Part shown: piece after piece, positions 15,457 to 24,489 of the stretch
Layout of the letters: the number at the start of each line of letters is the position of its first letter
How positions within the stretch are numbered: position 1 is the first letter of the stretch
Source of the DNA: a phage
Reading direction: 5' to 3' (one strand)
Length of the DNA: 64,000 nucleotides
Sequence record: MZ956761.1
Program-made: the position numbers and the translations under genes
Notes under the pieces: model-generated
Databases searched by the model: none
Told to the model about the DNA's origin: nothing
Seen by the model: the letters and a program-made list of their open reading frames with translations, nothing else

Positions 15457-15462
15457 GTTGAG

Positions 15463-15490
15463 GACTCCTTCGGGAGTCCTTTTTATTTTC
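15463..15490 (+). terminator. Rho-independent terminator
   Basis: GGACTCC-TTCG-GGAGTCC hairpin followed by TTTTTATTTT. Confidence 0.75.
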
Positions 15491-16372: not shown

Positions 16373-16660
16373 ATGTTTATGACTACTTATTTTGATACTC
16401 GTAAAAACTTCTGCGAAGTGGTTTTCTCTAAGGCGCCTAAAGACCTTCCTGCTCATTTGCAACCTACCAGCGAATCGATTAAAAACTACGTTAATGTAGT
16501 ATGTCCTTTAGAGTTCCGTACTGTAAATGGGCGCGATACTTTAGCTATCACTAAACTTAATCGTGAAATTGACATTGACCCTTCAATTGCGCGTGAAATT
16601 AATATTTCTGATATTGGCGGTGGTAATGTTAAATCACACGGCTTTCAGATGAGGTTCTAA
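16373..16660 (+). CDS. 30.6: Hypothetical protein (95 aa)
   Basis: ATG with GAGGAAAA RBS; symbol by synteny. Confidence 0.55.
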   Translation: MFMTTYFDTRKNFCEVVFSKAPKDLPAHLQPTSESIKNYVNVVCPLEFRTVNGRDTLAITKLNREIDIDPSIAREINISDIGGGNVKSHGFQMRF

Positions 16661-16857
16661 TGAAATTCTTTTTAGGTCAAACTGTTGAATTAAAGGGAGT
16701 TGGTATACCTGGATTAATTTCTAAGGTTCTACCTCCATTTAAATGGAGTGGTATTCAAATAAAAGAGGCTTATATTGTTTCCTGGGTAGATGGAAATGAA
16801 GACCTTCGTATGGGTGATGAATTATCTCCTATTTACGGATTAAAGGAATTAGTATGA
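16660..16857 (+). CDS. 30.5: Hypothetical protein (65 aa)
   Basis: ATG ORF with overlapping junctions; symbol by synteny. Confidence 0.5.
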   Translation: MKFFLGQTVELKGVGIPGLISKVLPPFKWSGIQIKEAYIVSWVDGNEDLRMGDELSPIYGLKELV

Positions 16858-17060
16858 ATATAATTAATAAGATTTTTGGAATTCAGTACATTAAGGTCAC
16901 ATATAAAGTAACAGATAAAAATCCGTATACTGATGAACACGAAGAACCGAAAGTTGAGTCTATTATATTAGAAAAGGACCCTAACTGGCCAGTTGAATTT
17001 CGTCTTCCTTGCTATGGTCATTGGGCTGATGTTGAAATTATAAGCATTGAAAATGTCTGA
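16854..17060 (+). CDS. 30.4: Hypothetical protein (68 aa)
   Basis: ATG ORF; symbol by synteny. Confidence 0.5.
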   Translation: MNIINKIFGIQYIKVTYKVTDKNPYTDEHEEPKVESIILEKDPNWPVEFRLPCYGHWADVEIISIENV

Positions 17061-17511
17061 GATAGAGATTAGAAGTAATTTTAGATGGCCATCATGCGCA
17101 TTAAGTAATTTCGCCCATTGGCCTTTCGTTATGGATGGTATTCAATTTGGAGGTCTCGAAGGATTCCTCCAAGGGTGCAAGGTGAAAAATGTTGAACAAC
17201 AACGTCGTATATTTGGGTTATCCGGGCTTGCCGCCCAACAAGCTGGAAGGTCTTATGCAAGAGCTCAGGACCGCGGGACCCTCTTCTGGCTTGGAGTTCC
17301 GTTTTCAAGATACTCCCCGGCGTGGAAAGAATTATACACAAATGCATATTTTGAAGCAGCGATCCAAAACAAGGGCTTTCGTGATGCATTACAAGCCTCA
17401 AAAGGAAAAGTTTTGAAGCACAGCATGGCTAGTGGTCTAACAAAAGATGATACAATACTAACCGAAGCTGAATTTATTGATGTGTTAAACCTATTAAGAG
17501 ACTCTCTATGA
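17053..17511 (+). CDS. 30.3: NADAR-domain protein (YbiA-like; candidate ADP-ribose N-glycosidase)
   Basis: About 152 aa from ATG 17053; LSNFAHWPFVMDGIQF..EGFLQGCK pattern resembles the NADAR/DUF1768 family (recalled). Confidence 0.65.
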   Translation: MSEIEIRSNFRWPSCALSNFAHWPFVMDGIQFGGLEGFLQGCKVKNVEQQRRIFGLSGLAAQQAGRSYARAQDRGTLFWLGVPFSRYSPAWKELYTNAYFEAAIQNKGFRDALQASKGKVLKHSMASGLTKDDTILTEAEFIDVLNLLRDSL

Positions 17512-18368
17512 AGCCTACTATTTTGACTGATATTGATGGTGTATGTTTAAGCTGGCAATCAGGTCTTCCTTATTTTGCTCAGAAATATAATCTTCCGTTA
17601 GAACATATTTTAAAAATGATCCAAGATGAGAAATTTATTTCTCCTGGTAAACTCTTTAATTGTGATGAAGAACTTGGCGTCAAGTTAATTGAAAAATACA
17701 ATCGTTCAGATTTTATTCGTTACTTGTCTCCATATAAAGATGCCCTGTGTGTAATTAACAAGTTAAAAGAAGATTATAATTTTGTTGCTGTTACAGCATT
17801 GGGTGATTCTATTGACGCTCTGCTGAATCGTCAATTTAATTTGAATGCTCTTTTTCCTGGTGCCTTCTCAGAAGTATTGATGTGTGGTCATGATTCTTCA
17901 AAAGAAGAGTTGTTCAAAAAGGCAAAAGAGAAATATAACGTAATTTGTTATATCGACGATCTCGCTCACCACTGCGATCATGCGAGTGAAATATTAAGTG
18001 TTCCTGTTTATTGGATGGCTCGAGGGGAGCGTGACAATATTCCAAAAACTGCACAGCGAGTTTATACATGGAATGATGTCGAGAATAAGCTTTTTCCATC
18101 GAAGGAAAATAAAGAAAGTTTTGATAGTGAAAAAGCTATAAAAGATGTAATTGAAAAGATGATTAAAAACGATTCTTTTCGTTGGAACACTACTTGGAGA
18201 ACTCCTGGATTTAATCCTTATAATCCATATCATCCATATTATACACACTCATATCAGAATCCATTCCATCCATTCCATACATGGAGTTATATTAAGCCTG
18301 GCGATGCAGGGTATTTTAATAGACTTACTAGTGGTAGTGGTGATAATATTTTCCAAGGAGCATTCTAA
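17508..18368 (+). CDS. 30.2: HAD-superfamily 5'(3')-deoxyribonucleotidase-like protein with low-complexity C-terminal tail
   Basis: 286 aa; N-terminal ILTDIDGV (DxDG HAD motif I); C-terminal P/Y/H/N-rich tail GFNPYNPYHPYYTHSYQNPFHPFHTWSY. Confidence 0.6.
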   Translation: MKPTILTDIDGVCLSWQSGLPYFAQKYNLPLEHILKMIQDEKFISPGKLFNCDEELGVKLIEKYNRSDFIRYLSPYKDALCVINKLKEDYNFVAVTALGDSIDALLNRQFNLNALFPGAFSEVLMCGHDSSKEELFKKAKEKYNVICYIDDLAHHCDHASEILSVPVYWMARGERDNIPKTAQRVYTWNDVENKLFPSKENKESFDSEKAIKDVIEKMIKNDSFRWNTTWRTPGFNPYNPYHPYYTHSYQNPFHPFHTWSYIKPGDAGYFNRLTSGSGDNIFQGAF

Positions 18369-18637
18369 TGTTTGTTGTTCACACTATTTATGAAAATGAA
18401 GGTAATACTACTCGTGATTACGGTCACGTAAATCAATTTTTTAGATGCAATCCAGAATTTCGAGCTCAAAAAGACGAACGAATTTTTAAAAAATGTGTAG
18501 AGCAAGGTTTCATTTACGTCAAGCATTGGATGCAAGGAAATAAAGTTAGAACCACGTACCATAGGTCTTTGACTGAGCTTAATGATGAATTGATTTATAA
18601 TAGAGCTGTAAACCAAACTCTAAAGGATGAACAATGA
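18368..18637 (+). CDS. 30.1: Hypothetical protein (89 aa)
   Basis: ATG ORF, ATGA overlaps with neighbours; symbol by synteny. Confidence 0.5.
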   Translation: MFVVHTIYENEGNTTRDYGHVNQFFRCNPEFRAQKDERIFKKCVEQGFIYVKHWMQGNKVRTTYHRSLTELNDELIYNRAVNQTLKDEQ

Positions 18638-20097
18638 TTCTTAAAATTCTGAACGAAATAGCATCTATTGGTTCAACTAAGCAGAAGCAAGCAATTCTTG
18701 AAAAGAATAAAGATAATGAATTGCTTAAACGAGTATATCGTCTGACTTATTCTCGTGGGTTGCAGTATTATATCAAGAAATGGCCTAAATCTGGTATTGC
18801 TACCCAGAGTTTTGGAATGTTGACTCTTACCGATATGCTTGACTTCATTGAATTTACATTAGCTACTCGGAAATTGACCGGAAATGCGGCAATTGAGGAA
18901 TTAGTAGGTTATATTACTGACGGTAAAAAAGATGATGTTGAAGTTTTGCGTCGAGTGATGATGCGAGACCTTGAATGTGGTGCTTCAGTATCTATTGCAA
19001 ACAAAGTTTGGCCAGGTTTAATTCCTGAACAACCTCAAATGCTCGCAAGTTCTTATGATGAAAAAGGCATTAGTAAGAATATCAAATTTCCAGCCTTTGC
19101 ACAATTAAAAGCAGATGGAGCTCGGTGTTTTGCTGAAGTCCGAGGTGATGAATTAGATGATGTTCGTCTTTTATCACGAGCTGGTAATGAATATCTAGGA
19201 TTAGATCTTCTTAAGGAAGAGTTAATCAAAATGACTGCTGAAGCCCGCCAGATTCATCCAGAAGGTGTGTTAATCGATGGCGAATTGGTATACCATGAGC
19301 AAGTTAAAAAGGAACCAGAAGGCCTAGATTTTCTTTTTGATGCTTATCCTGAAATTAGTAAAGCTAAAGAATTCGCCGAAGTAGCGGAATCTCGTACTAC
19401 TTCTAATGGAATCGCTAATAAATCTTTAAAGGGAACTATTTCAGAAAAAGAAGCTCAATGCATGAAGTTTCAGGTCTGGGATTATGTTCCGTTGGTAGAA
19501 ATATACGGTCTTCCAGCATTTCGTTTAAAATATGATGTACGTTTTTCTAAATTAGAACAAATGACATCAGGATATGATAAAGTAATTTTAATTGAAAACC
19601 AAGTAGTAAATAACCTAGATGAAGCTAAGGTAATTTATAAAAAGTATATTGACCAAGGTCTTGAAGGTATTATTCTCAAAAATATCGATGGATTATGGGA
19701 AAATGCTCGTTCAAAAAATCTCTATAAATTTAAAGAAGTAATTGATGTTGATTTAAAAATTGTAGGAATTTATCCTCACCGTAAAGACCCTACTAAAGCA
19801 GGTGGATTTATTCTTGAGTCAGAGTGTGGAAAAATTAAGGTAAATGCTGGTTCAGGCTTAAAAGATAAAGCCGGCGTAAAATCGCATGAACTTGACCGTA
19901 CTCGCATTATGGAAAACCAAAATTATTATATTGGAAAAATTCTAGAGTGCGAATGCAACGGTTGGTTAAAATCTGATGGCCGCACTGATTACGTTAAATT
20001 ATTTCTTCCGATTGCGATTCGTTTGCGTGAAGATAAAACTAAAGCTAATACATTCGAAGATGTATTTGGTGATTTTCATGAGGTAACTGGTTTATGA
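18634..20097 (+). CDS. 30: ATP-dependent DNA ligase
   Basis: 487 aa; adenylation motif KADGAR (FAQLKADGARCFAEV); length as T4 ligase. Confidence 0.95.
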   Translation: MILKILNEIASIGSTKQKQAILEKNKDNELLKRVYRLTYSRGLQYYIKKWPKSGIATQSFGMLTLTDMLDFIEFTLATRKLTGNAAIEELVGYITDGKKDDVEVLRRVMMRDLECGASVSIANKVWPGLIPEQPQMLASSYDEKGISKNIKFPAFAQLKADGARCFAEVRGDELDDVRLLSRAGNEYLGLDLLKEELIKMTAEARQIHPEGVLIDGELVYHEQVKKEPEGLDFLFDAYPEISKAKEFAEVAESRTTSNGIANKSLKGTISEKEAQCMKFQVWDYVPLVEIYGLPAFRLKYDVRFSKLEQMTSGYDKVILIENQVVNNLDEAKVIYKKYIDQGLEGIILKNIDGLWENARSKNLYKFKEVIDVDLKIVGIYPHRKDPTKAGGFILESECGKIKVNAGSGLKDKAGVKSHELDRTRIMENQNYYIGKILECECNGWLKSDGRTDYVKLFLPIAIRLREDKTKANTFEDVFGDFHEVTGL

Positions 20098-20331: not shown

Positions 20332-22428
20332 ATGATGGAACTCATTACAGAATTATTTGACGAAGATACTACTCTTCCGATTACAAACTTAAACCCAAAG
20401 AAGAAAATACCACAAATTTTTTCAGTTCATGTTGATGATGCAATTGAACAACCAGGCTTTCGTTTATGTACCTATACATCTGGAGGTGATACTAATCGCG
20501 ATTTAAAGATGGGCGATAAAATGATGCATATTGTTCCTTTTACATTAACTGCTAAAGGTTCAATTGCTAAATTAAAAGGTCTCGGTCCAAGCCCAATTAA
20601 CTACATCAATTCAGTTTTTACCGTTGCAATGCAGACGATGCGTCAGTATAAAATTGATGCCTGTATGCTCCGTATTCTTAAGTCTAAAACTGCTGGTCAA
20701 GCTCGACAAATTCAAGTTATTGCTGATAGACTTATCCGTAGTCGTTCAGGTGGCAGATACGTCCTTCTTAAGGAACTCTGGGATTACGATAAAAAGTATG
20801 CATATATTCTTATACATCGCAAAAATGTATCACTAGAAGACATTCCAGGAGTTCCGGAAATTAGTACCGAGCTCTTTACTAAAGTTGAATCGAAGGTCGG
20901 TGATGTTTATATCAATAAAGATACCGGAGCTCAAGTAACTAAAAATGAGGCAATTGCAGCATCTATTGCGCAAGAAAACGATAAACGTTCTGACCAAGCT
21001 GTAATCGTTAAAGTTAAAATTTCCCGTAGAGCAATTGCACAAAGTCAATCATTAGAATCTTCTAGATTTGAAAGTGAATTATTCCAGAAGTATGAATCTA
21101 CCGCAGCTAATTTCAATAAACCTGCTACCGCTCCTTTAATTCCCGAAGCAGAAGAAATGAAACTTGGAATTAATTCAATAGCTTCTAAAACTAAGGCAGC
21201 AAAAATCATTGCCGAAGGAACTGCAGATGAACTTCACTATGATTATAAATTCTTTTCAAAAAGTGAGGTTAATGAAGTTTCTGAAAAGATAAAAGATGTA
21301 ATTCTTAATGCGATTAAAAATGAACCAACTACTTCAATAAAATGTTTAGAGAAATACGCAGCAGCTGTTAATCAACTCTTTGAAGAATATAAAGATAATT
21401 GGCTTGATAAACATAATAAAACTCGTAAAGGGCAGCCAGATGAAGTCTGGGAAGAAATGACTAAAAATTCCTGGAACGCAGCAAAAACTAAATTCCTCAA
21501 AAGAATGATTTATAGTTTTTCTGGAATTGGTGCAGGTCCAATGATTGATATTACTATTGCCCGTGATGGTTCTAAATATACTCCATCACAAAAGCGCGGC
21601 ATTAGAGAGTATTGTGGTTCAGGATATACAGACATTAATAATCTTCTTTTAGGTCGTTACAATCCAGAACGGTATGAAATAATGAGTGAAAAAGAAATTG
21701 AATCTGCTATAAATAATTTAGATTCAGCTTTTGAAAATGGCGACCGTATACCGGAAGGCATTACAGTTTATCGTGCTCAAAGTATGACTGCTCCTATATA
21801 CGAAGCACTAGTTAAAAATAAAGTGTTCTATTTCAGAAATTTTGTATCTACTTCTTTAACTCCTATCATTTTTGGACGTTTTGGAATTACACATGCTGGT
21901 ATTGGTCTTTTAGAACCAGAAGCTCGTAACGAATTAACAGTTGATAAAAATGAAGAAGGAATAACTATTAATCCAAACGAAATAAGAGCGTATAAAGAAA
22001 ATCCTGAATACGTTAAAGTTCAAATAGGATGGGCAATTGATGGAGCTCATAAAGTTAATGTTGTATATCCAGGAAGTCTCGGAATAGCAACAGAAGCTGA
22101 AGTTATTCTACCGCGCGGATTGATGGTCAAAGTTAATAAAATAACTGATGCTTCTAATAATGACGGAACAACATCTAATAATACAAAACTCATTCAAGCT
22201 GAAGTTATGACCACAGAAGAACTCACCGAATCGGTAATCTATGACGGAGACCGTTTAATGGAAACCGGCGAAGTAGTTGCAATGACTGGTGATATTGAAA
22301 TAGAAGATAGAGTTGACTTTGCATCATTTGTTTCATCAAATGTTAAACAGAAAGTAGAATCATCTCTTGGAATTATTGCGTCTTGCATAGATATTACAAA
22401 CATGCCTTACAAGTTCGTTCAAGGATAA
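20332..22428 (+). CDS. alt: Alt-family NAD-protein ADP-ribosyltransferase (packaged internal head protein), paralog 1
   Basis: 698 aa; N-terminus MELITELFDE...; C-terminal domain carries R (VYRAQ), STS (FVSTSL) and E-x-E (TEAEVILPRG) motifs. Confidence 0.85.
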   Translation: MMELITELFDEDTTLPITNLNPKKKIPQIFSVHVDDAIEQPGFRLCTYTSGGDTNRDLKMGDKMMHIVPFTLTAKGSIAKLKGLGPSPINYINSVFTVAMQTMRQYKIDACMLRILKSKTAGQARQIQVIADRLIRSRSGGRYVLLKELWDYDKKYAYILIHRKNVSLEDIPGVPEISTELFTKVESKVGDVYINKDTGAQVTKNEAIAASIAQENDKRSDQAVIVKVKISRRAIAQSQSLESSRFESELFQKYESTAANFNKPATAPLIPEAEEMKLGINSIASKTKAAKIIAEGTADELHYDYKFFSKSEVNEVSEKIKDVILNAIKNEPTTSIKCLEKYAAAVNQLFEEYKDNWLDKHNKTRKGQPDEVWEEMTKNSWNAAKTKFLKRMIYSFSGIGAGPMIDITIARDGSKYTPSQKRGIREYCGSGYTDINNLLLGRYNPERYEIMSEKEIESAINNLDSAFENGDRIPEGITVYRAQSMTAPIYEALVKNKVFYFRNFVSTSLTPIIFGRFGITHAGIGLLEPEARNELTVDKNEEGITINPNEIRAYKENPEYVKVQIGWAIDGAHKVNVVYPGSLGIATEAEVILPRGLMVKVNKITDASNNDGTTSNNTKLIQAEVMTTEELTESVIYDGDRLMETGEVVAMTGDIEIEDRVDFASFVSSNVKQKVESSLGIIASCIDITNMPYKFVQG

Positions 22429-22431
22429 ATC

Positions 22432-24489
22432 ATGGAACTTATTACAGAATTATTTGACGGCGCTTCGGCGCCGGTTGTTAACTTAAATCCTAAGCATAAA
22501 ATACCTCAAATTTTTGCTATTCAAGCCGGTGAAGAAAGTGTTCTCCCTGGATTTAGATTTTGTACATACACCTCTGGTGGTGATACAAATAAAAACGTTA
22601 AGCCAGGCGATAAAATGATGCATATCGTAATGATAGGTGTCAATGAGAAACTATCATTAGTTAAGCTTAAAAACTTGGGTGGAAATCCAATTGGTGTCAT
22701 TAATGCCGTTTTTGATACTGCTCTTCAAACAATGAAACAGTATAAAATCGACGCATGCCTATTCCGCGTACTAAAAAGTAAAACAAATGGCGCAGCTCGT
22801 CAAATGCAAGTTATTGCTGACCGTTTAGTACGTACTAAGGGAGCAGGTCGATATGTTCTTTTAAAGGAAATCTGGGACTATGATAAAAAATATGCATATA
22901 TTATGGTTTACCGTAAAAATGCCAATTTAGAAGACATTCCAGGTGTACCTCCTATTTCAACTGAGTTATTCACAAAAGTTGAATCAAAGGTTGGTGATGT
23001 TTATGTAGATGTTAAAACAGGTAATGCTGTTCCTAAAGCTGTTGCTGTTGCTGCTTCTATTGCTTTAGAAAATGATAAGCGCACGGATCAAGCTGTTATT
23101 CAGAAAACTAAAATTAGTCGTCGATTAGCAGCACAAGCTCAATATTCTACTGTTGATGCTTCACTTCAGGGTGATAGCTTCGCCGCTAAGAAATATCAAG
23201 AGTTTGAATCTAAAGTTCCGGTATATAAAGCAGAAGGACCAATGAACTCTGGCGTTATTCAGATTGGTTCCAACTTCGGCAAAGGAGCTATCGGTGGTAT
23301 GAGAAGTGCTTCTCGTTTTAAATCTAACGATTATGAACTAGAAAGCTTTCGAAATCATATTGCATTGGCCCATGCACGTTTACGTGATCCGTCTATCAGA
23401 CTGCAGAGCGATATAACACATCAAGGTTCTCAAGAATATTTAAAGAATAAAGAATTTTTTGATTATAAAACCGATAAAATTTTGAGCGATCTCGCTGACA
23501 TTAATATTTCTAATAGCTTTGATGTTATTAAGAAAATTATCAATGATTTAGTTAAAGGTTCTAAAGCCACGCCAGACGAAAAGGTAGCTATTATTCAATT
23601 TGTCATGAATAGCATTTATAAATTGATTAATGAATCTGCTGCCCAGGCATATGAATACGCAAGCACCGAAGTAACTCCAAAAGGACTGACTCAGGCTGAA
23701 TCTGATGTAATTGAAGATTATTGTGCAGATTCATATGTTGAAATGAACTCGTTCCTTTTGGGTAAACCAGATTCTACCCGTGAAGAATACATGGAACGAG
23801 CTATTAAACACATCGAGACGTTGGATTCTGCATTCGCCAAAGGATCAGTTCTTCCTCCAGGAACTACGCTTTATCGTGGACAAGAAGTTACTTTTAAAAC
23901 TTTACGCCATAATATTGAAAATAAAATGTTCTATTTCAAGAACTTCGTATCAACATCGCTTAAACCAAATATCTTCGGTGAGCATGGTAAAAACTATATG
24001 GCTCTAGATGATTCTGGCGCAGTATTTTCTGGCGAAGGAGAAGGTTCTGTTGATGCAGAAGATTTGATGCATATGGGTAGTCATTCTACATATGCCAATG
24101 AAGATGCTGAAACTAGCGTAGGTATGGTAATTAAAGGGGCTGAGCGAATCAAAGTTATCGTTCCAGGTCATTTATCAGGATTTCCATCAGAAGCTGAAGT
24201 TATTCTACCACGTGGAATTTTGTTGAAGATTAATAAAGTAAGCACGTACATGATGAAAGAAACTGCTTATAACAAGTATCTAATCGAAGGTACAATCGTT
24301 CCTCCTTCTGAACAATTAGAAGAATCAGTATATGATGGAGACCATCTAATGGAAACTGGTGAAGTTCGTCCAATGGCTGGATTTAATCAATTCCTTGTAG
24401 AAGAATCAAAAGAAGAGGAAAACGAAGTTTCTCAAATCTTGGCTTCTTTGGTTAACATCAACGGAATGTCTAAAAAGTTCAAGATGTAG
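22432..24489 (+). CDS. Alt-family ADP-ribosyltransferase, paralog 2
   Basis: 685 aa; N-terminal about 230 aa closely similar to paralog 1, divergent middle region, R (LYRGQ), STS (FVSTSL) and E-x-E (SEAEVILPRG) motifs retained. Confidence 0.85.
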   Translation: MELITELFDGASAPVVNLNPKHKIPQIFAIQAGEESVLPGFRFCTYTSGGDTNKNVKPGDKMMHIVMIGVNEKLSLVKLKNLGGNPIGVINAVFDTALQTMKQYKIDACLFRVLKSKTNGAARQMQVIADRLVRTKGAGRYVLLKEIWDYDKKYAYIMVYRKNANLEDIPGVPPISTELFTKVESKVGDVYVDVKTGNAVPKAVAVAASIALENDKRTDQAVIQKTKISRRLAAQAQYSTVDASLQGDSFAAKKYQEFESKVPVYKAEGPMNSGVIQIGSNFGKGAIGGMRSASRFKSNDYELESFRNHIALAHARLRDPSIRLQSDITHQGSQEYLKNKEFFDYKTDKILSDLADINISNSFDVIKKIINDLVKGSKATPDEKVAIIQFVMNSIYKLINESAAQAYEYASTEVTPKGLTQAESDVIEDYCADSYVEMNSFLLGKPDSTREEYMERAIKHIETLDSAFAKGSVLPPGTTLYRGQEVTFKTLRHNIENKMFYFKNFVSTSLKPNIFGEHGKNYMALDDSGAVFSGEGEGSVDAEDLMHMGSHSTYANEDAETSVGMVIKGAERIKVIVPGHLSGFPSEAEVILPRGILLKINKVSTYMMKETAYNKYLIEGTIVPPSEQLEESVYDGDHLMETGEVRPMAGFNQFLVEESKEEENEVSQILASLVNINGMSKKFKM

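What the first reader, a model, noticed from the sequence alone, without database searches (positions are those of the whole stretch)
17508..18368. HAD-like nucleotidase (30.2) with an unusual P/Y/H/N-rich C-terminal tail
The N-terminus (ILTDIDGV) matches HAD motif I of 5'(3')-deoxyribonucleotidase-type phosphatases. The last 60 or so residues form a low-complexity tail (GFNPYNPYHPYYTHSYQNPFHPFHTWSY) unlike a canonical HAD cap. It sits directly downstream of, and is translationally coupled to, the NADAR gene (ATGA overlap). The pairing suggests sequential processing of a nucleotide-derived substrate, for example an ADP-ribose or nucleotide signalling product. The aromatic/proline tail could mediate protein-protein or membrane interaction.
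Basis: inference. Interest (0 to 1): 0.45.

Follow-up and report, generated by a model that had tools for sequence, protein, structure and literature searches.

The report
T4 gene 30.2: HAD nucleotidase-like phosphatase
This is the phage T4 gene 30.2, an uncharacterised but fairly ordinary phosphatase related to deoxyribonucleotidases; it carries a floppy, fast-evolving tail, and nothing specific links it to the neighbouring anti-defence NADAR gene.

Summary
The ORF is real: 17508..18368 on the + strand, 286 aa. It is the orthologue of T4 gene 30.2 in a Tequatrovirus, and the window is 100% identical to Escherichia phage ADUt.

Residues 1-195 are a confidently predicted HAD fold. All four catalytic motifs are invariant or nearly so (D8/D10, T96, K132, D150/D151), and a helical C1 cap occupies about residues 13-76. 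The closest solved structures are cytosolic and mitochondrial 5'(3')-deoxyribonucleotidases. The protein itself has no Pfam hit, but 20 of 42 distant family members match Pfam NT5C, so it is a divergent, phage-restricted NT5C-type branch.

The P/Y/H/N-rich tail is real but is not a cap. It is a disordered C-terminal extension:
- it is absent from about 45% of homologues;
- it is remodelled by in-frame 3- and 6-bp indels;
- it is under relaxed but purifying selection (dN/dS 0.08-0.40, against 0.01-0.05 in the core).

The NADAR neighbour is AdfN, a published anti-DarTG1 DNA ADP-ribosylglycohydrolase. The ATGA overlap is one of six consecutive overlapping junctions. 30.3 is adjacent in only 18 of 78 related loci, whereas DNA ligase lies directly downstream in 64.

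HAD and nucleotidase labels already exist in UniRef and some GenBank records. No substrate is known. Interest is low to moderate.

The parts
17508..18368 (+). Gene 30.2 orthologue, 286 aa plus TAA stop.
   Evidence: ORF list and sequence. The region is 100% identical to phage ADUt, and the protein is 88% identical to the T4 30.2 locus in NC_000866. Matches phrog_420 at E 1e-90.
17529..17543 (+). HAD motif I, D8-I-D10-G-V. D8 is the predicted nucleophile and D10 the general acid/base.
   Evidence: D8, D10 and G11 are invariant in alignments A1 and A3; D7/D9 are invariant in the distant set A5.
17544..17735 (+). C1-type helical cap, about residues 13-76, with helices at 16-26, 32-40, 46-49, 54-65 and 68-72. 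Contains invariant W16, S18, Y64 and S67 and nearly invariant F69/I70.
   Evidence: AF2 secondary structure with pLDDT above 90. A profile alignment to cdN 2jao covers this region, pairing DGVxxxW-x-SGL with DGVLADF-E-SGL.
17784..17801 (+). Strand 2 and HAD motif II (VAVTAL, T96).
   Evidence: T96, A97 and L98 are at least 90% conserved, with Ser replacing Thr in a few sequences. Predicted strand at 91-96.
17901..17903 (+). HAD motif III lysine, K132.
   Evidence: Invariant in A1, A3 and A5.
17955..17960 (+). HAD motif IV, D150-D151, the predicted Mg2+ ligands.
   Evidence: Invariant in A1 and A3. They sit at the end of predicted strand 145-150.
18093..18179 (+). Charged linker, residues 196-224, with a predicted amphipathic helix at 207-220 (KAIKDVIEKMIKN).
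   Evidence: AF2 helix 207-220, with a block pLDDT of 89 for residues 211-220. The equivalent helix is longer in the model of homologue P0047.
18180..18365 (+). Disordered aromatic/Pro/Asn/His-rich tail, residues 225-286. It includes a degenerate copy (GDAGYFNRLTS) of the motif G-x-G-[IV]-E-Y-L-x-x-Q-P-T found in other genera.
   Evidence: pLDDT below 50 for 225-233 and 241-286. Composition. Tail survey of 167 unique homologues. Motif alignment. dN/dS 0.08-0.40.
18212..18282 (+). Two short 9-bp tandem-repeat tracts, 18212-18239 and 18259-18282. They encode the NPY/HPY/HPF repeats and are sites of in-frame indels between close relatives.
   Evidence: Tandem Repeats Finder. DNA alignment with L001-L004 shows only 3- and 6-bp (in-frame) gaps.
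18355..18360 (+). AAGGAG Shine-Dalgarno sequence for gene 30.1, embedded in the last codons of 30.2 (..FQGAF). The 30.1 ATG (18368-18370) overlaps the 30.2 TAA stop.
   Evidence: Read directly from the sequence. The last 30 nt are almost invariant among relatives, so conservation of the extreme C-terminus is confounded by this signal.
17053..17511 (+). [quoted passage not shown] It is full length here. The ORF tool starts it at TTG 17047; the ATG at 17053 gives the 152-aa T4 length.
   Evidence: Pfam PF08010 at E 8e-70. PMC11825919. UniRef name NADAR_BPT4 for a 152-aa member.
18368..20097 (+). Context: gene 30.1 (DUF3045, 18368-18637) and gene 30, ATP-dependent DNA ligase (18634-20097). These are the most conserved neighbours of 30.2.
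   Evidence: Pfam DUF3045. Ligase lies within 700 bp downstream in 64 of 78 loci.

Best explanation
gp30.2 is a Mg2+-dependent phosphomonoesterase of the HAD superfamily. It belongs to a divergent, phage-restricted branch of the NT5C-type 5'(3')-deoxyribonucleotidase family.

Inferred chemistry, from established HAD enzymology:
- Asp8 attacks the substrate phosphate to form an aspartyl-phosphate intermediate.
- Asp10 acts as general acid/base.
- Thr96 and Lys132 hold the phosphate.
- Asp150 and Asp151 hold Mg2+.
- The C1 helical cap (about residues 13-76, with invariant W16 and nearly invariant F69) closes over a small substrate.

The most likely substrate is a (deoxy)nucleoside monophosphate. 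The enzyme would then trim or clean the nucleotide pool during T4-type infection, alongside the DNA replication and repair genes it travels with.

The C-terminal 90 residues are not catalytic. They consist of a linker helix plus an intrinsically disordered aromatic/proline-rich segment. This segment evolves by repeat slippage, is dispensable in many lineages, and most plausibly serves as a weak docking or self-association module.

Shown here: fold, motifs, family relationship, tail disorder and tail variability. Inferred: substrate class, biological role and tail function.
For: Catalytic motifs:
- All four HAD motifs are invariant or nearly so across 30 homologues at 34-95% identity.
- The two Asp of motif I and the motif III Lys also hold in 42 much more distant representatives.

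Fold:
- AF2 gives pLDDT above 90 for residues 1-195.
- Foldseek top PDB hits are mouse and human cdN and mdN (2jao, 2i7d, 1mh9, 1q92) and the S. epidermidis deoxyribonucleotidase-like protein 3bwv: E 2e-8 to 1e-6, probability 1.00, target-normalised TM-score 0.62-0.70.
- BFVD hits include phage proteins named 5' nucleotidase and the PhiW-14 nucleotidase.

Sequence:
- The best PDB hit of the family profile is cdN 2jao at E 0.016. The alignment runs through motif I and the first cap helices.
- 5 of 30 close members match Pfam NT5C PF06941.
- 20 of 42 distant members do so, best E 4e-10.

Precedent and context:
- A phage NT5C-family enzyme, the PBS1 dTMP phosphatase, has been characterised biochemically (PMC12697855).
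- Neighbours of distant members are nucleotide or DNA-metabolism genes. These are a MazG-like pyrophosphatase directly downstream in L077/L078, plus exonuclease, UvsX/UvsY and dCMP deaminase elsewhere.

Selection:
- The core is under strong purifying selection, dN/dS 0.01-0.05.

Tail:
- pLDDT is below 50 in two independent models.
- 74 of 167 unique homologues have 20 aa or fewer after the core.
- Only in-frame indels separate close relatives.
- dN/dS is 0.08-0.40 among close relatives.
Against: - The window protein has no Pfam or NCBIfam hit even at E up to 1, so NT5C membership rests on structure and transitive homology.
- HAD C1-cap enzymes are notoriously promiscuous, and substrate cannot be read from fold.
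- A dNMP-destroying activity looks counterproductive for a phage that salvages host dNMPs. This point rests on established T4 biology.
- No paper in the searched library mentions gp30.2 function.
- The tail motif did not dock on the core in the AF2 model and occurs in no other protein family, so its partner, if any, is unknown.
Confidence: 0.6

Rival explanations
1. gp30.2 works with AdfN (gp30.3, NADAR). It would process a phosphorylated product downstream of DNA de-ADP-ribosylation, such as AMP or ribose-5-phosphate after Nudix cleavage of ADP-ribose. Alternatively it is the unidentified T-even protein that AdfN needs for full activity.
For: - The two genes are adjacent with an ATGA overlap in this window and in all Tequatrovirus- and Mosigvirus-type loci, 18 of 78.
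- PMC11825919 reports that AdfN(T4) fails as an antitoxin in uninfected cells and in T5/Bas25 infections. The authors suggest it needs an additional T-even protein.
- RB69, which AdfN(T4) rescues, has an intact 271-aa 30.2.
- Iyer et al. describe cellular ADP-ribosylglycohydrolase operons coupled to phosphatases, including a HAD 5'-nucleotidase (PMC9503650).
- Both genes occur in about 1450-1510 phage records with near-identical host distributions.
Against: - Adjacency is lineage-restricted: 41-43 of 78 loci have no 30.3 within 5 kb. In the Klebsiella phage vB_Kpl_K65 variants the genes lie about 100 kb apart.
- Overlapping junctions are the rule for the whole 30.6-30 block.
- Genome-level co-occurrence is uninformative, because both genes are near-universal in T4-like phages.
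- Tail presence is unrelated to 30.3 adjacency.
- RB69 keeps an intact 30.2 although its 30.3 is truncated.
- ADP-ribose itself has no phosphomonoester.
Confidence: 0.08
2. gp30.2 is a nucleic-acid end-healing 3'-phosphatase, like the HAD phosphatase domains of T4 Pnk or PNKP. It would prepare nicks for the DNA ligase encoded immediately downstream.
For: - Ligase lies within 700 bp downstream on the same strand in 64 of 78 loci, far more conserved than the NADAR link.
- There is a weak PHROG hit to polynucleotide kinase, phrog_415 at E 0.0017.
- BFVD structural hits include phage polynucleotide kinase/phosphatases.
- One representative (P0150) fuses a 30.2-type HAD to a Pol-beta-like nucleotidyltransferase. 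That nucleotidyltransferase is a separate gene two ORFs downstream of the HAD in L072/L073.
Against: - The protein has a roughly 60-residue C1 cap, like small-molecule HADs, whereas PNKP-type DNA 3'-phosphatases are capless (established HAD classification; cap seen).
- The top structural and Pfam relatives are nucleotidases, not PNKP.
- T4 already encodes Pnk.
- Ligase adjacency may simply reflect conserved T4-like synteny, and the most distant loci (L069-L071, L077, L078) lack ligase nearby.
Confidence: 0.1
3. gp30.2 is a phosphatase for a non-canonical small molecule. Candidates are a host immune-signalling or toxic nucleotide derivative, NMN, or a sugar phosphate. In that case the NT5C resemblance reflects ancestry only.
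For: - The clade is phage-restricted. Only one hit was found in 185,579 species genomes, on a 178-kb phage-like contig.
- It is an early-region gene among host-takeover and anti-defence genes such as AdfN and Alt.
- It is divergent enough from NT5C to miss the Pfam threshold.
- HAD substrate range is broad (established knowledge).
Against: - There is no direct evidence for any such substrate.
- The aromatic residues at the positions aligned with the cdN base-binding region are conserved: W16 against Phe, and F69-I70 against Phe-Phe. This suggests a nucleobase-containing ligand.
- The padloc library was not scanned, so there is no defence-system evidence either way.
Confidence: 0.15
4. The tail has no function of its own. 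It is tolerated slippage-generated sequence, kept in frame only because the ribosome-binding site and start codon of gene 30.1 lie at its 3' end.
For: - The tail is absent or 20 aa or shorter in 74 of 167 unique homologues.
- 9-bp repeats and frequent indels are present.
- dN/dS reaches 0.86 in a comparison between genera, at saturated dS.
- The widely conserved IEYL..QPT motif is degenerate in this very phage.
- The C-terminal codons contain the 30.1 Shine-Dalgarno sequence.
Against: - dN/dS is 0.08-0.40 within genera, clearly below 1.
- Every indel between the five close relatives compared is in frame.
- Tails of 60-135 aa persist in many genera with a recurring layout of helix, P/aromatic stretch and terminal motif.
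Confidence: 0.2

Closest known systems
NT5C family 5'(3')-deoxyribonucleotidases (Pfam PF06941; human and mouse cdN and mdN, PDB 2jao, 2i7d, 1mh9; S. epidermidis 3bwv)
   Same: - The HAD Rossmannoid core carries a DxDGV motif I, Thr motif II, Lys motif III and DD motif IV.
- A C1 helical cap is inserted right after motif I.
- An aromatic residue sits six positions after the second motif I Asp (W16 aligned with Phe of cdN), followed by x-S-G-L.
- These are the best structural matches and the best PDB profile match.
- Half of the distant family representatives match PF06941.
   Different: - Only 14-19% identity to the solved enzymes.
- The window protein does not reach any Pfam threshold.
- The clade is essentially confined to T4-like phages.
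- It carries a roughly 90-residue linker and disordered tail that NT5C enzymes lack.
- Activity is untested.
Phage PBS1 dTMP phosphatase (Dtm), a characterised phage NT5C-family enzyme (PMC12697855)
   Same: It is a phage-encoded PF06941-type HAD nucleotidase that acts on the nucleotide pool during infection.
   Different: PBS1 Dtm removes dTMP to support dU-DNA. 30.2 occurs across T4-like phages of many hosts, so it is unlikely to be tied to one DNA modification. No homology beyond the family level was shown here.
HAD phosphatase domain of T4 polynucleotide kinase (Pnk/PseT) and PNKP-type DNA 3'-phosphatases
   Same: These share the HAD core and DxDG motif and are phage-encoded. The ligase-associated logic is similar. 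The hits are weak: phrog_415 and BFVD matches.
   Different: Those enzymes lack a cap and act on polynucleotide ends. gp30.2 has a C1 cap, and its nearest relatives are nucleotidases.
ADP-ribosylglycohydrolase operons coupled to phosphatases, including a HAD 5'-nucleotidase (Iyer et al. 2022, PMC9503650)
   Same: A de-ADP-ribosylating enzyme, here the NADAR AdfN, is encoded next to a HAD nucleotidase-like phosphatase.
   Different: Those are cellular ARG-based operons with Nudix or WYL regulators. Here the linkage is not conserved outside T-even relatives and no Nudix gene was seen among the overlapping genes of the block (not systematically searched).

Membership tests
HAD (haloacid dehalogenase-like) superfamily phosphatases | Motif I DxDx(T/V) at the end of strand 1, with a nucleophile Asp and an Asp+2 acid/base. 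| tested here: met
   D8-I-D10-G-V. D8, D10 and G11 are invariant in A1 and A3, and the two Asp also in A5. Predicted strand at 4-7.
HAD (haloacid dehalogenase-like) superfamily phosphatases | Motif II Ser/Thr, motif III Lys/Arg and motif IV DD or DxxxD acidic pair, on successive core strands. | tested here: met
   T96 is at least 90% conserved (Ser otherwise). K132 and D150-D151 are invariant. They sit at the ends of predicted strands 91-96 and 145-150.
HAD (haloacid dehalogenase-like) superfamily phosphatases | Rossmannoid alpha/beta core fold. | tested here: met
   AF2 pLDDT above 90 over residues 1-195. 110 PDB matches at E up to 0.001; all 50 listed are HAD-superfamily hydrolases or designed enzymes built on that scaffold.
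HAD (haloacid dehalogenase-like) superfamily phosphatases | Passes a curated Pfam HAD model (PF00702, PF13419). | tested here: not met
   The window protein has no hit at E up to 1. 8 of 30 homologues hit PF00702 only weakly, best E 3.5e-4.
HAD (haloacid dehalogenase-like) superfamily phosphatases | Mg2+-dependent phosphoryl transfer through an aspartyl-phosphate intermediate. | not testable with these tools
   Needs enzyme assays and D8N/D10N mutants.
NT5C-type 5'(3')-deoxyribonucleotidases (PF06941) | C1 cap, a small helical bundle inserted immediately after motif I. | tested here: met
   Five helices between residues 16 and 72, before strand 2. The profile alignment with cdN spans this region.
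NT5C-type 5'(3')-deoxyribonucleotidases (PF06941) | Sequence membership: reaches the PF06941 gathering score. | tested here: inconclusive
   The window protein has no hit. 5 of 30 close homologues hit at best E 1.2e-4. 20 of 42 distant representatives of the same HMM family hit at best E 4.2e-10. The link is therefore transitive, not direct.
NT5C-type 5'(3')-deoxyribonucleotidases (PF06941) | Closest structural neighbours are cdN/mdN. | tested here: met
   The rank-1 PDB hit is 2jao at E 1.8e-8. 2i7d, 4yih, 1q92, 1mh9 and 3bwv follow, with target-normalised TM-scores of 0.62-0.70.
NT5C-type 5'(3')-deoxyribonucleotidases (PF06941) | Hydrolyses 5'- and 3'-(deoxy)nucleoside monophosphates. | not testable with these tools
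Functional NADAR-phosphatase module | Conserved gene linkage or fusion between the NADAR and the phosphatase across lineages. | tested here: not met
   Adjacent in 18 of 78 loci, within 5 kb in 35, absent from the flank in 41-43. No NADAR fusion was seen among the ten longest or multi-domain representatives scanned. About 100 kb apart in some Klebsiella phages.

The most novel reading that the evidence does not exclude
gp30.2 is the missing T-even-specific helper of the anti-DarT NADAR AdfN. Its disordered aromatic/proline tail would dock the phosphatase to AdfN or to the replisome. Its catalytic core would remove a phosphorylated by-product or lesion left when ADP-ribose is stripped from phage DNA. 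This would explain why AdfN works only during T-even infection.
Probability: 0.06. Interest if true: 0.65.

Novelty: new member of a known kind. Interest (0 to 1): 0.25.

Why it matters
T4 is the best-studied lytic phage, yet 30.2 is still labelled hypothetical in its reference record. The gene is conserved in about 1450 sequenced T4-like phages infecting Escherichia, Klebsiella, Acinetobacter, Aeromonas and Vibrio.

Placing it as a divergent NT5C-type nucleotidase gives a concrete, cheap biochemical test and would fill a gap in the T4 nucleotide-metabolism map.

Its position next to AdfN makes it a convenient, though weakly supported, candidate for the unexplained T-even specificity of that anti-defence enzyme.

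The tail is a tidy example of a slippage-driven disordered extension on a phage enzyme. Nothing here points to a new kind of system.

Tried and rejected
- **Direct family searches.** Pfam, NCBIfam and PDB sequence searches with the single protein gave nothing significant. Family profiles and structure were needed.
- **Literature.** A search for gp30.2 found nothing, and 30.1/30.2/30.3 as words returned only noise.
- **Does the tail motif fold back onto the core?** An AF2 model of homologue P0047, which has the canonical GIGTGIEYLNRQPT motif, used a tail-rich alignment. It still gave pLDDT below 50 for the tail, so no intramolecular docking is predicted.
- **Is the tail a module shared with other proteins?** A profile search of 5.8 billion proteins with a tail alignment returned only two fragments of 30.2 itself. 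No similar segment or motif occurs elsewhere in the window.
- **Cellular homologues.** A scan of 185,579 species genomes gave one hit, on a 178-kb phage-like contig.
- **RB69 argument, withdrawn.** I first reasoned that RB69 has a tail-less 30.2, so the tail would be dispensable for AdfN function. The RB69 record shows a 271-aa tail-bearing 30.2, so that argument does not hold.
- **Promoter and terminator scan.** Hits were at chance level, and no + strand terminator-like site lies between the one at 15460-15481 and the end of the scanned region at 20500. This is consistent with co-transcription but uninformative about function.
- **C-terminal DNIFQGAF as a clamp- or SSB-type docking peptide.** Rejected. 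It fits no such motif that I know. It is confined to Tequatrovirus, and its conservation is confounded by the 30.1 ribosome-binding site.
- **Fusion partners of long family members.** Only P0150 was informative, with a Pol-beta-like nucleotidyltransferase N-terminus.
Full report
**What the window is.** The 1.7-kb region around the finding is 100% identical to Escherichia phage ADUt and 97-98% identical to many other Tequatrovirus genomes. The + strand carries the T4 gene block 30.6, 30.5, 30.4, 30.3, 30.2, 30.1, 30 (DNA ligase) and alt. The finding's ORF, 17508..18368, 286 aa, is the orthologue of T4 gene 30.2. It is 88% identical to the T4 30.2 locus in NC_000866, which is annotated there as a hypothetical protein.

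**Checking the observation.**
- The N-terminus MKPTILTDIDGV, the quoted tail string and the ATGA stop/start overlap with the upstream gene are all there.
- The last 62 residues are 32% F/Y/W/H against 14% in the core, with 7 Pro, 6 Asn and only 6 charged residues.
- No other real gene in the 64-kb window has such a segment.

**The catalytic domain.** The single sequence matches nothing in Pfam or NCBIfam. In PHROGs it matches only phrog_420 (unknown function), plus a weak hit to polynucleotide kinase.

- An alignment of 30 homologues at 34-95% identity shows D8, D10, K132 and D150/D151 invariant and T96 at least 90% conserved. These are the four HAD motifs. The two Asp and the Lys remain invariant in 42 far more distant representatives.
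- AlphaFold2 with that alignment gives pLDDT above 90 for residues 1-195. The model is an alternating strand-helix core with five helices (residues 16-72) inserted directly after motif I. That is a C1 cap.
- Foldseek against the PDB ranks mouse cytosolic 5'(3')-deoxyribonucleotidase first (2jao, E 1.8e-8). Human cdN and mdN and the S. epidermidis deoxyribonucleotidase-like protein 3bwv come close behind, with target-normalised TM-scores of 0.62-0.70.
- The family profile's best PDB sequence hit is the same enzyme (E 0.016). The alignment runs from motif I into the cap, pairing DGVxxxW-x-SGL with DGVLADF-E-SGL.
- An exhaustive HMM search finds 1502 representatives at 50% clustering, mostly 190-215 aa. 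Of 42 sampled from the distant end, 20 match Pfam NT5C PF06941, best E 4e-10.

So 30.2 is a divergent NT5C-type HAD phosphatase by structure and by transitive homology, though not by direct Pfam membership. The clade is phage-restricted. It occurs in 1453 phage records. Among 185,579 species genomes there was a single hit, on a 178-kb phage-like contig.

The assignment is not new. UniRef calls a 279-aa member a 'Haloacid dehalogenase-like hydrolase domain-containing protein'. Some GenBank records say '5'-3' deoxyribonucleotidase', '5' nucleotidase', 'putative phosphatase' or 'HAD-like protein'.

**The tail.** The tail is not an odd cap; the cap is elsewhere. After the core comes a charged linker with a predicted amphipathic helix (207-220). 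Residues 225-286 follow, predicted disordered with pLDDT 35-53.

- Among 167 unique homologues, 74 have 20 residues or fewer after the core. The rest have 21-148, mostly 60-110.
- Long tails share a layout: a helix, a Pro/Trp/Tyr/Phe-rich stretch, and a short terminal motif. The commonest motif is G-x-G-[IV]-E-Y-L-x-x-Q-P-T. It is found in Klebsiella, Enterobacter, Citrobacter and Dhakavirus-type phages and in T4-type sequences, as GGVEYLYNRPTS.
- In this window the motif is degenerate (GDAGYFNRLTS).
- At the DNA level the tail contains two 9-bp repeat tracts. It differs from close relatives only by in-frame 3- and 6-bp indels.
- dN/dS is 0.08-0.40 in the tail against 0.01-0.05 in the core. 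Selection is relaxed but still purifying.
- The motif does not dock on the core in an AF2 model of a homologue with the canonical motif.
- No other protein family shares the tail.
- The almost invariant last codons (..FQGAF) contain the AAGGAG ribosome-binding site of gene 30.1, whose ATG overlaps the 30.2 stop. That conservation therefore cannot be credited to the protein.

The best reading is an intrinsically disordered, slippage-prone extension with a weak docking or self-association role. The probability that it is largely tolerated junk is not negligible.

**The NADAR pairing.** The upstream gene matches Pfam Phage_30_3 at E 8e-70. [quoted passage not shown]

That paper notes AdfN(T4) works fully only in T-even infections and may need another T-even protein. 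This makes the adjacent 30.2 an obvious candidate. The evidence here does not favour a specific partnership:
1. The overlap is generic. All six junctions from 30.6 to gene 30 overlap by 1-8 nt. No + strand terminator-like site lies between 15481 and the end of the scan at 20500.
2. In 78 related viral loci, 30.3 is adjacent in 18, within 5 kb in 35 and absent from the flank in 41-43. DNA ligase lies within 700 bp downstream in 64.
3. Variants of Klebsiella phage vB_Kpl_K65 place 30.3 near 27 kb and 30.2 near 135 kb of a 166-kb genome.
4. Both genes are near-universal in T4-like phages, at 1511 and 1453 records, so co-occurrence says nothing.
5. Tail presence is independent of 30.3 adjacency.
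6. RB69 keeps an intact tail-bearing 30.2 while its 30.3 is truncated.
7. ADP-ribose has no phosphomonoester.

A precedent for glycohydrolase-phosphatase coupling exists in cellular ARG operons (PMC9503650). The idea is therefore legitimate but unsupported here.

**Other context.** Distant family members sit among DNA and nucleotide-metabolism genes. These include a MazG-like pyrophosphatase directly downstream in L077/L078, a PD-(D/E)XK exonuclease, UvsX/UvsY, and a dCMP deaminase 2 kb away. One representative is fused to a Pol-beta-like nucleotidyltransferase that is a nearby separate gene in L072/L073. This favours a nucleotide or nucleic-acid-related substrate. A biochemically characterised phage NT5C enzyme exists: the PBS1 dTMP phosphatase (PMC12697855).

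**Mechanism.** I commit to a Mg2+-dependent phosphomonoesterase that works through a phospho-Asp8 intermediate. It would act on (deoxy)nucleoside monophosphates enclosed by the C1 cap and adjust nucleotide pools during infection.

Rough confidences:
- about 0.9 that it is an active HAD phosphatase;
- about 0.5-0.6 that the substrate is a nucleoside monophosphate;
- lower for any specific physiological role.

Rivals, none excluded:
- an AdfN helper (about 0.08);
- a ligase-linked end-healing 3'-phosphatase (about 0.1, disfavoured by the cap);
- a phosphatase for some other small molecule or signal (about 0.15).

**Verdict.** The tail is real but is a lineage-variable disordered appendage. The proposed functional coupling to the NADAR gene is not supported by comparative data. 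This is an uncharacterised member of a known enzyme kind, already partly annotated as such, so interest is low to moderate.

Noticed in passing
window 17053-17511 (+): Gene 30.3 (AdfN, the anti-DarT NADAR) is full length here. It keeps the C-terminal residues that are truncated in RB69 and that PMC11825919 reports as needed for full activity. This phage is therefore predicted to resist DarTG1. The ORF tool starts it at TTG 17047, but the ATG at 17053 gives the 152-aa length of the T4 protein.
   Followed up: partly
window 20332-22428 and 22432-24489 (+): There are two tandem Alt-like ADP-ribosyltransferase paralogues of 698 and 685 aa, 41% identical over their full length. The first is 98% identical to the alt gene of loci L003/L004 but only 71% to that of L001/L002, so this locus appears to vary between close relatives.
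   Followed up: partly
window 16373-20097 (+): Six consecutive gene junctions (30.6/30.5/30.4/30.3/30.2/30.1/30) overlap by 1-8 nt as TAATG, ATGA or ATGTCTGA. No + strand terminator-like site lies within the block, which suggests one tightly packed translational unit ending in DNA ligase.
   Followed up: partly
L077 5692-6000 and L078 5694-6002: In two metagenomic viral contigs, a distant 30.2-type HAD (32-33% identity) is followed directly by a MazG-like nucleotide pyrophosphohydrolase (phrog_1992/715, E 1e-37 to 1e-35). This would give an NTP to NMP to nucleoside two-step.
   Followed up: partly
P0150 (591 aa); L072 6336-7394 and L073: One family representative fuses an N-terminal Pol-beta-like nucleotidyltransferase (phrog_24943, named 'DNA polymerase') to a C-terminal 30.2-type HAD. 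The same nucleotidyltransferase (32% identity, E 6e-56) is a separate gene two ORFs downstream of the HAD in marine T4-like contigs. There is no homologue in this window.
   Followed up: partly
L080 (NZ_JBHSCL010000010.1, Flagellimonas marina assembly, 178,077-bp contig): The only hit in 185,579 species genomes lies on a contig the size of a T4-like phage genome, and the 30.2 homologue is 48% identical. It is probably a co-sequenced or contaminating T4-like phage rather than a bacterial gene.
   Followed up: no
P0013 (302 aa); cluster of P0001: Some database entries fuse 30.2 with 30.1 (DUF3045) in one ORF. The 90%-identity cluster holding 30.2 also contains 152-aa 30.3 proteins. These are probably artefacts of frameshifted or read-through gene calls across the overlapping junctions.
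   Followed up: no
L008-L013 (JS98/JS10-type phages), 30.2 C-terminus: These 212-aa versions have lost the linker and the aromatic stretch, but they end in ..AVEW[IV]ARG. MAFFT aligns this with the IEYL motif of the long tails, which may be a remnant of the terminal motif.
   Followed up: no
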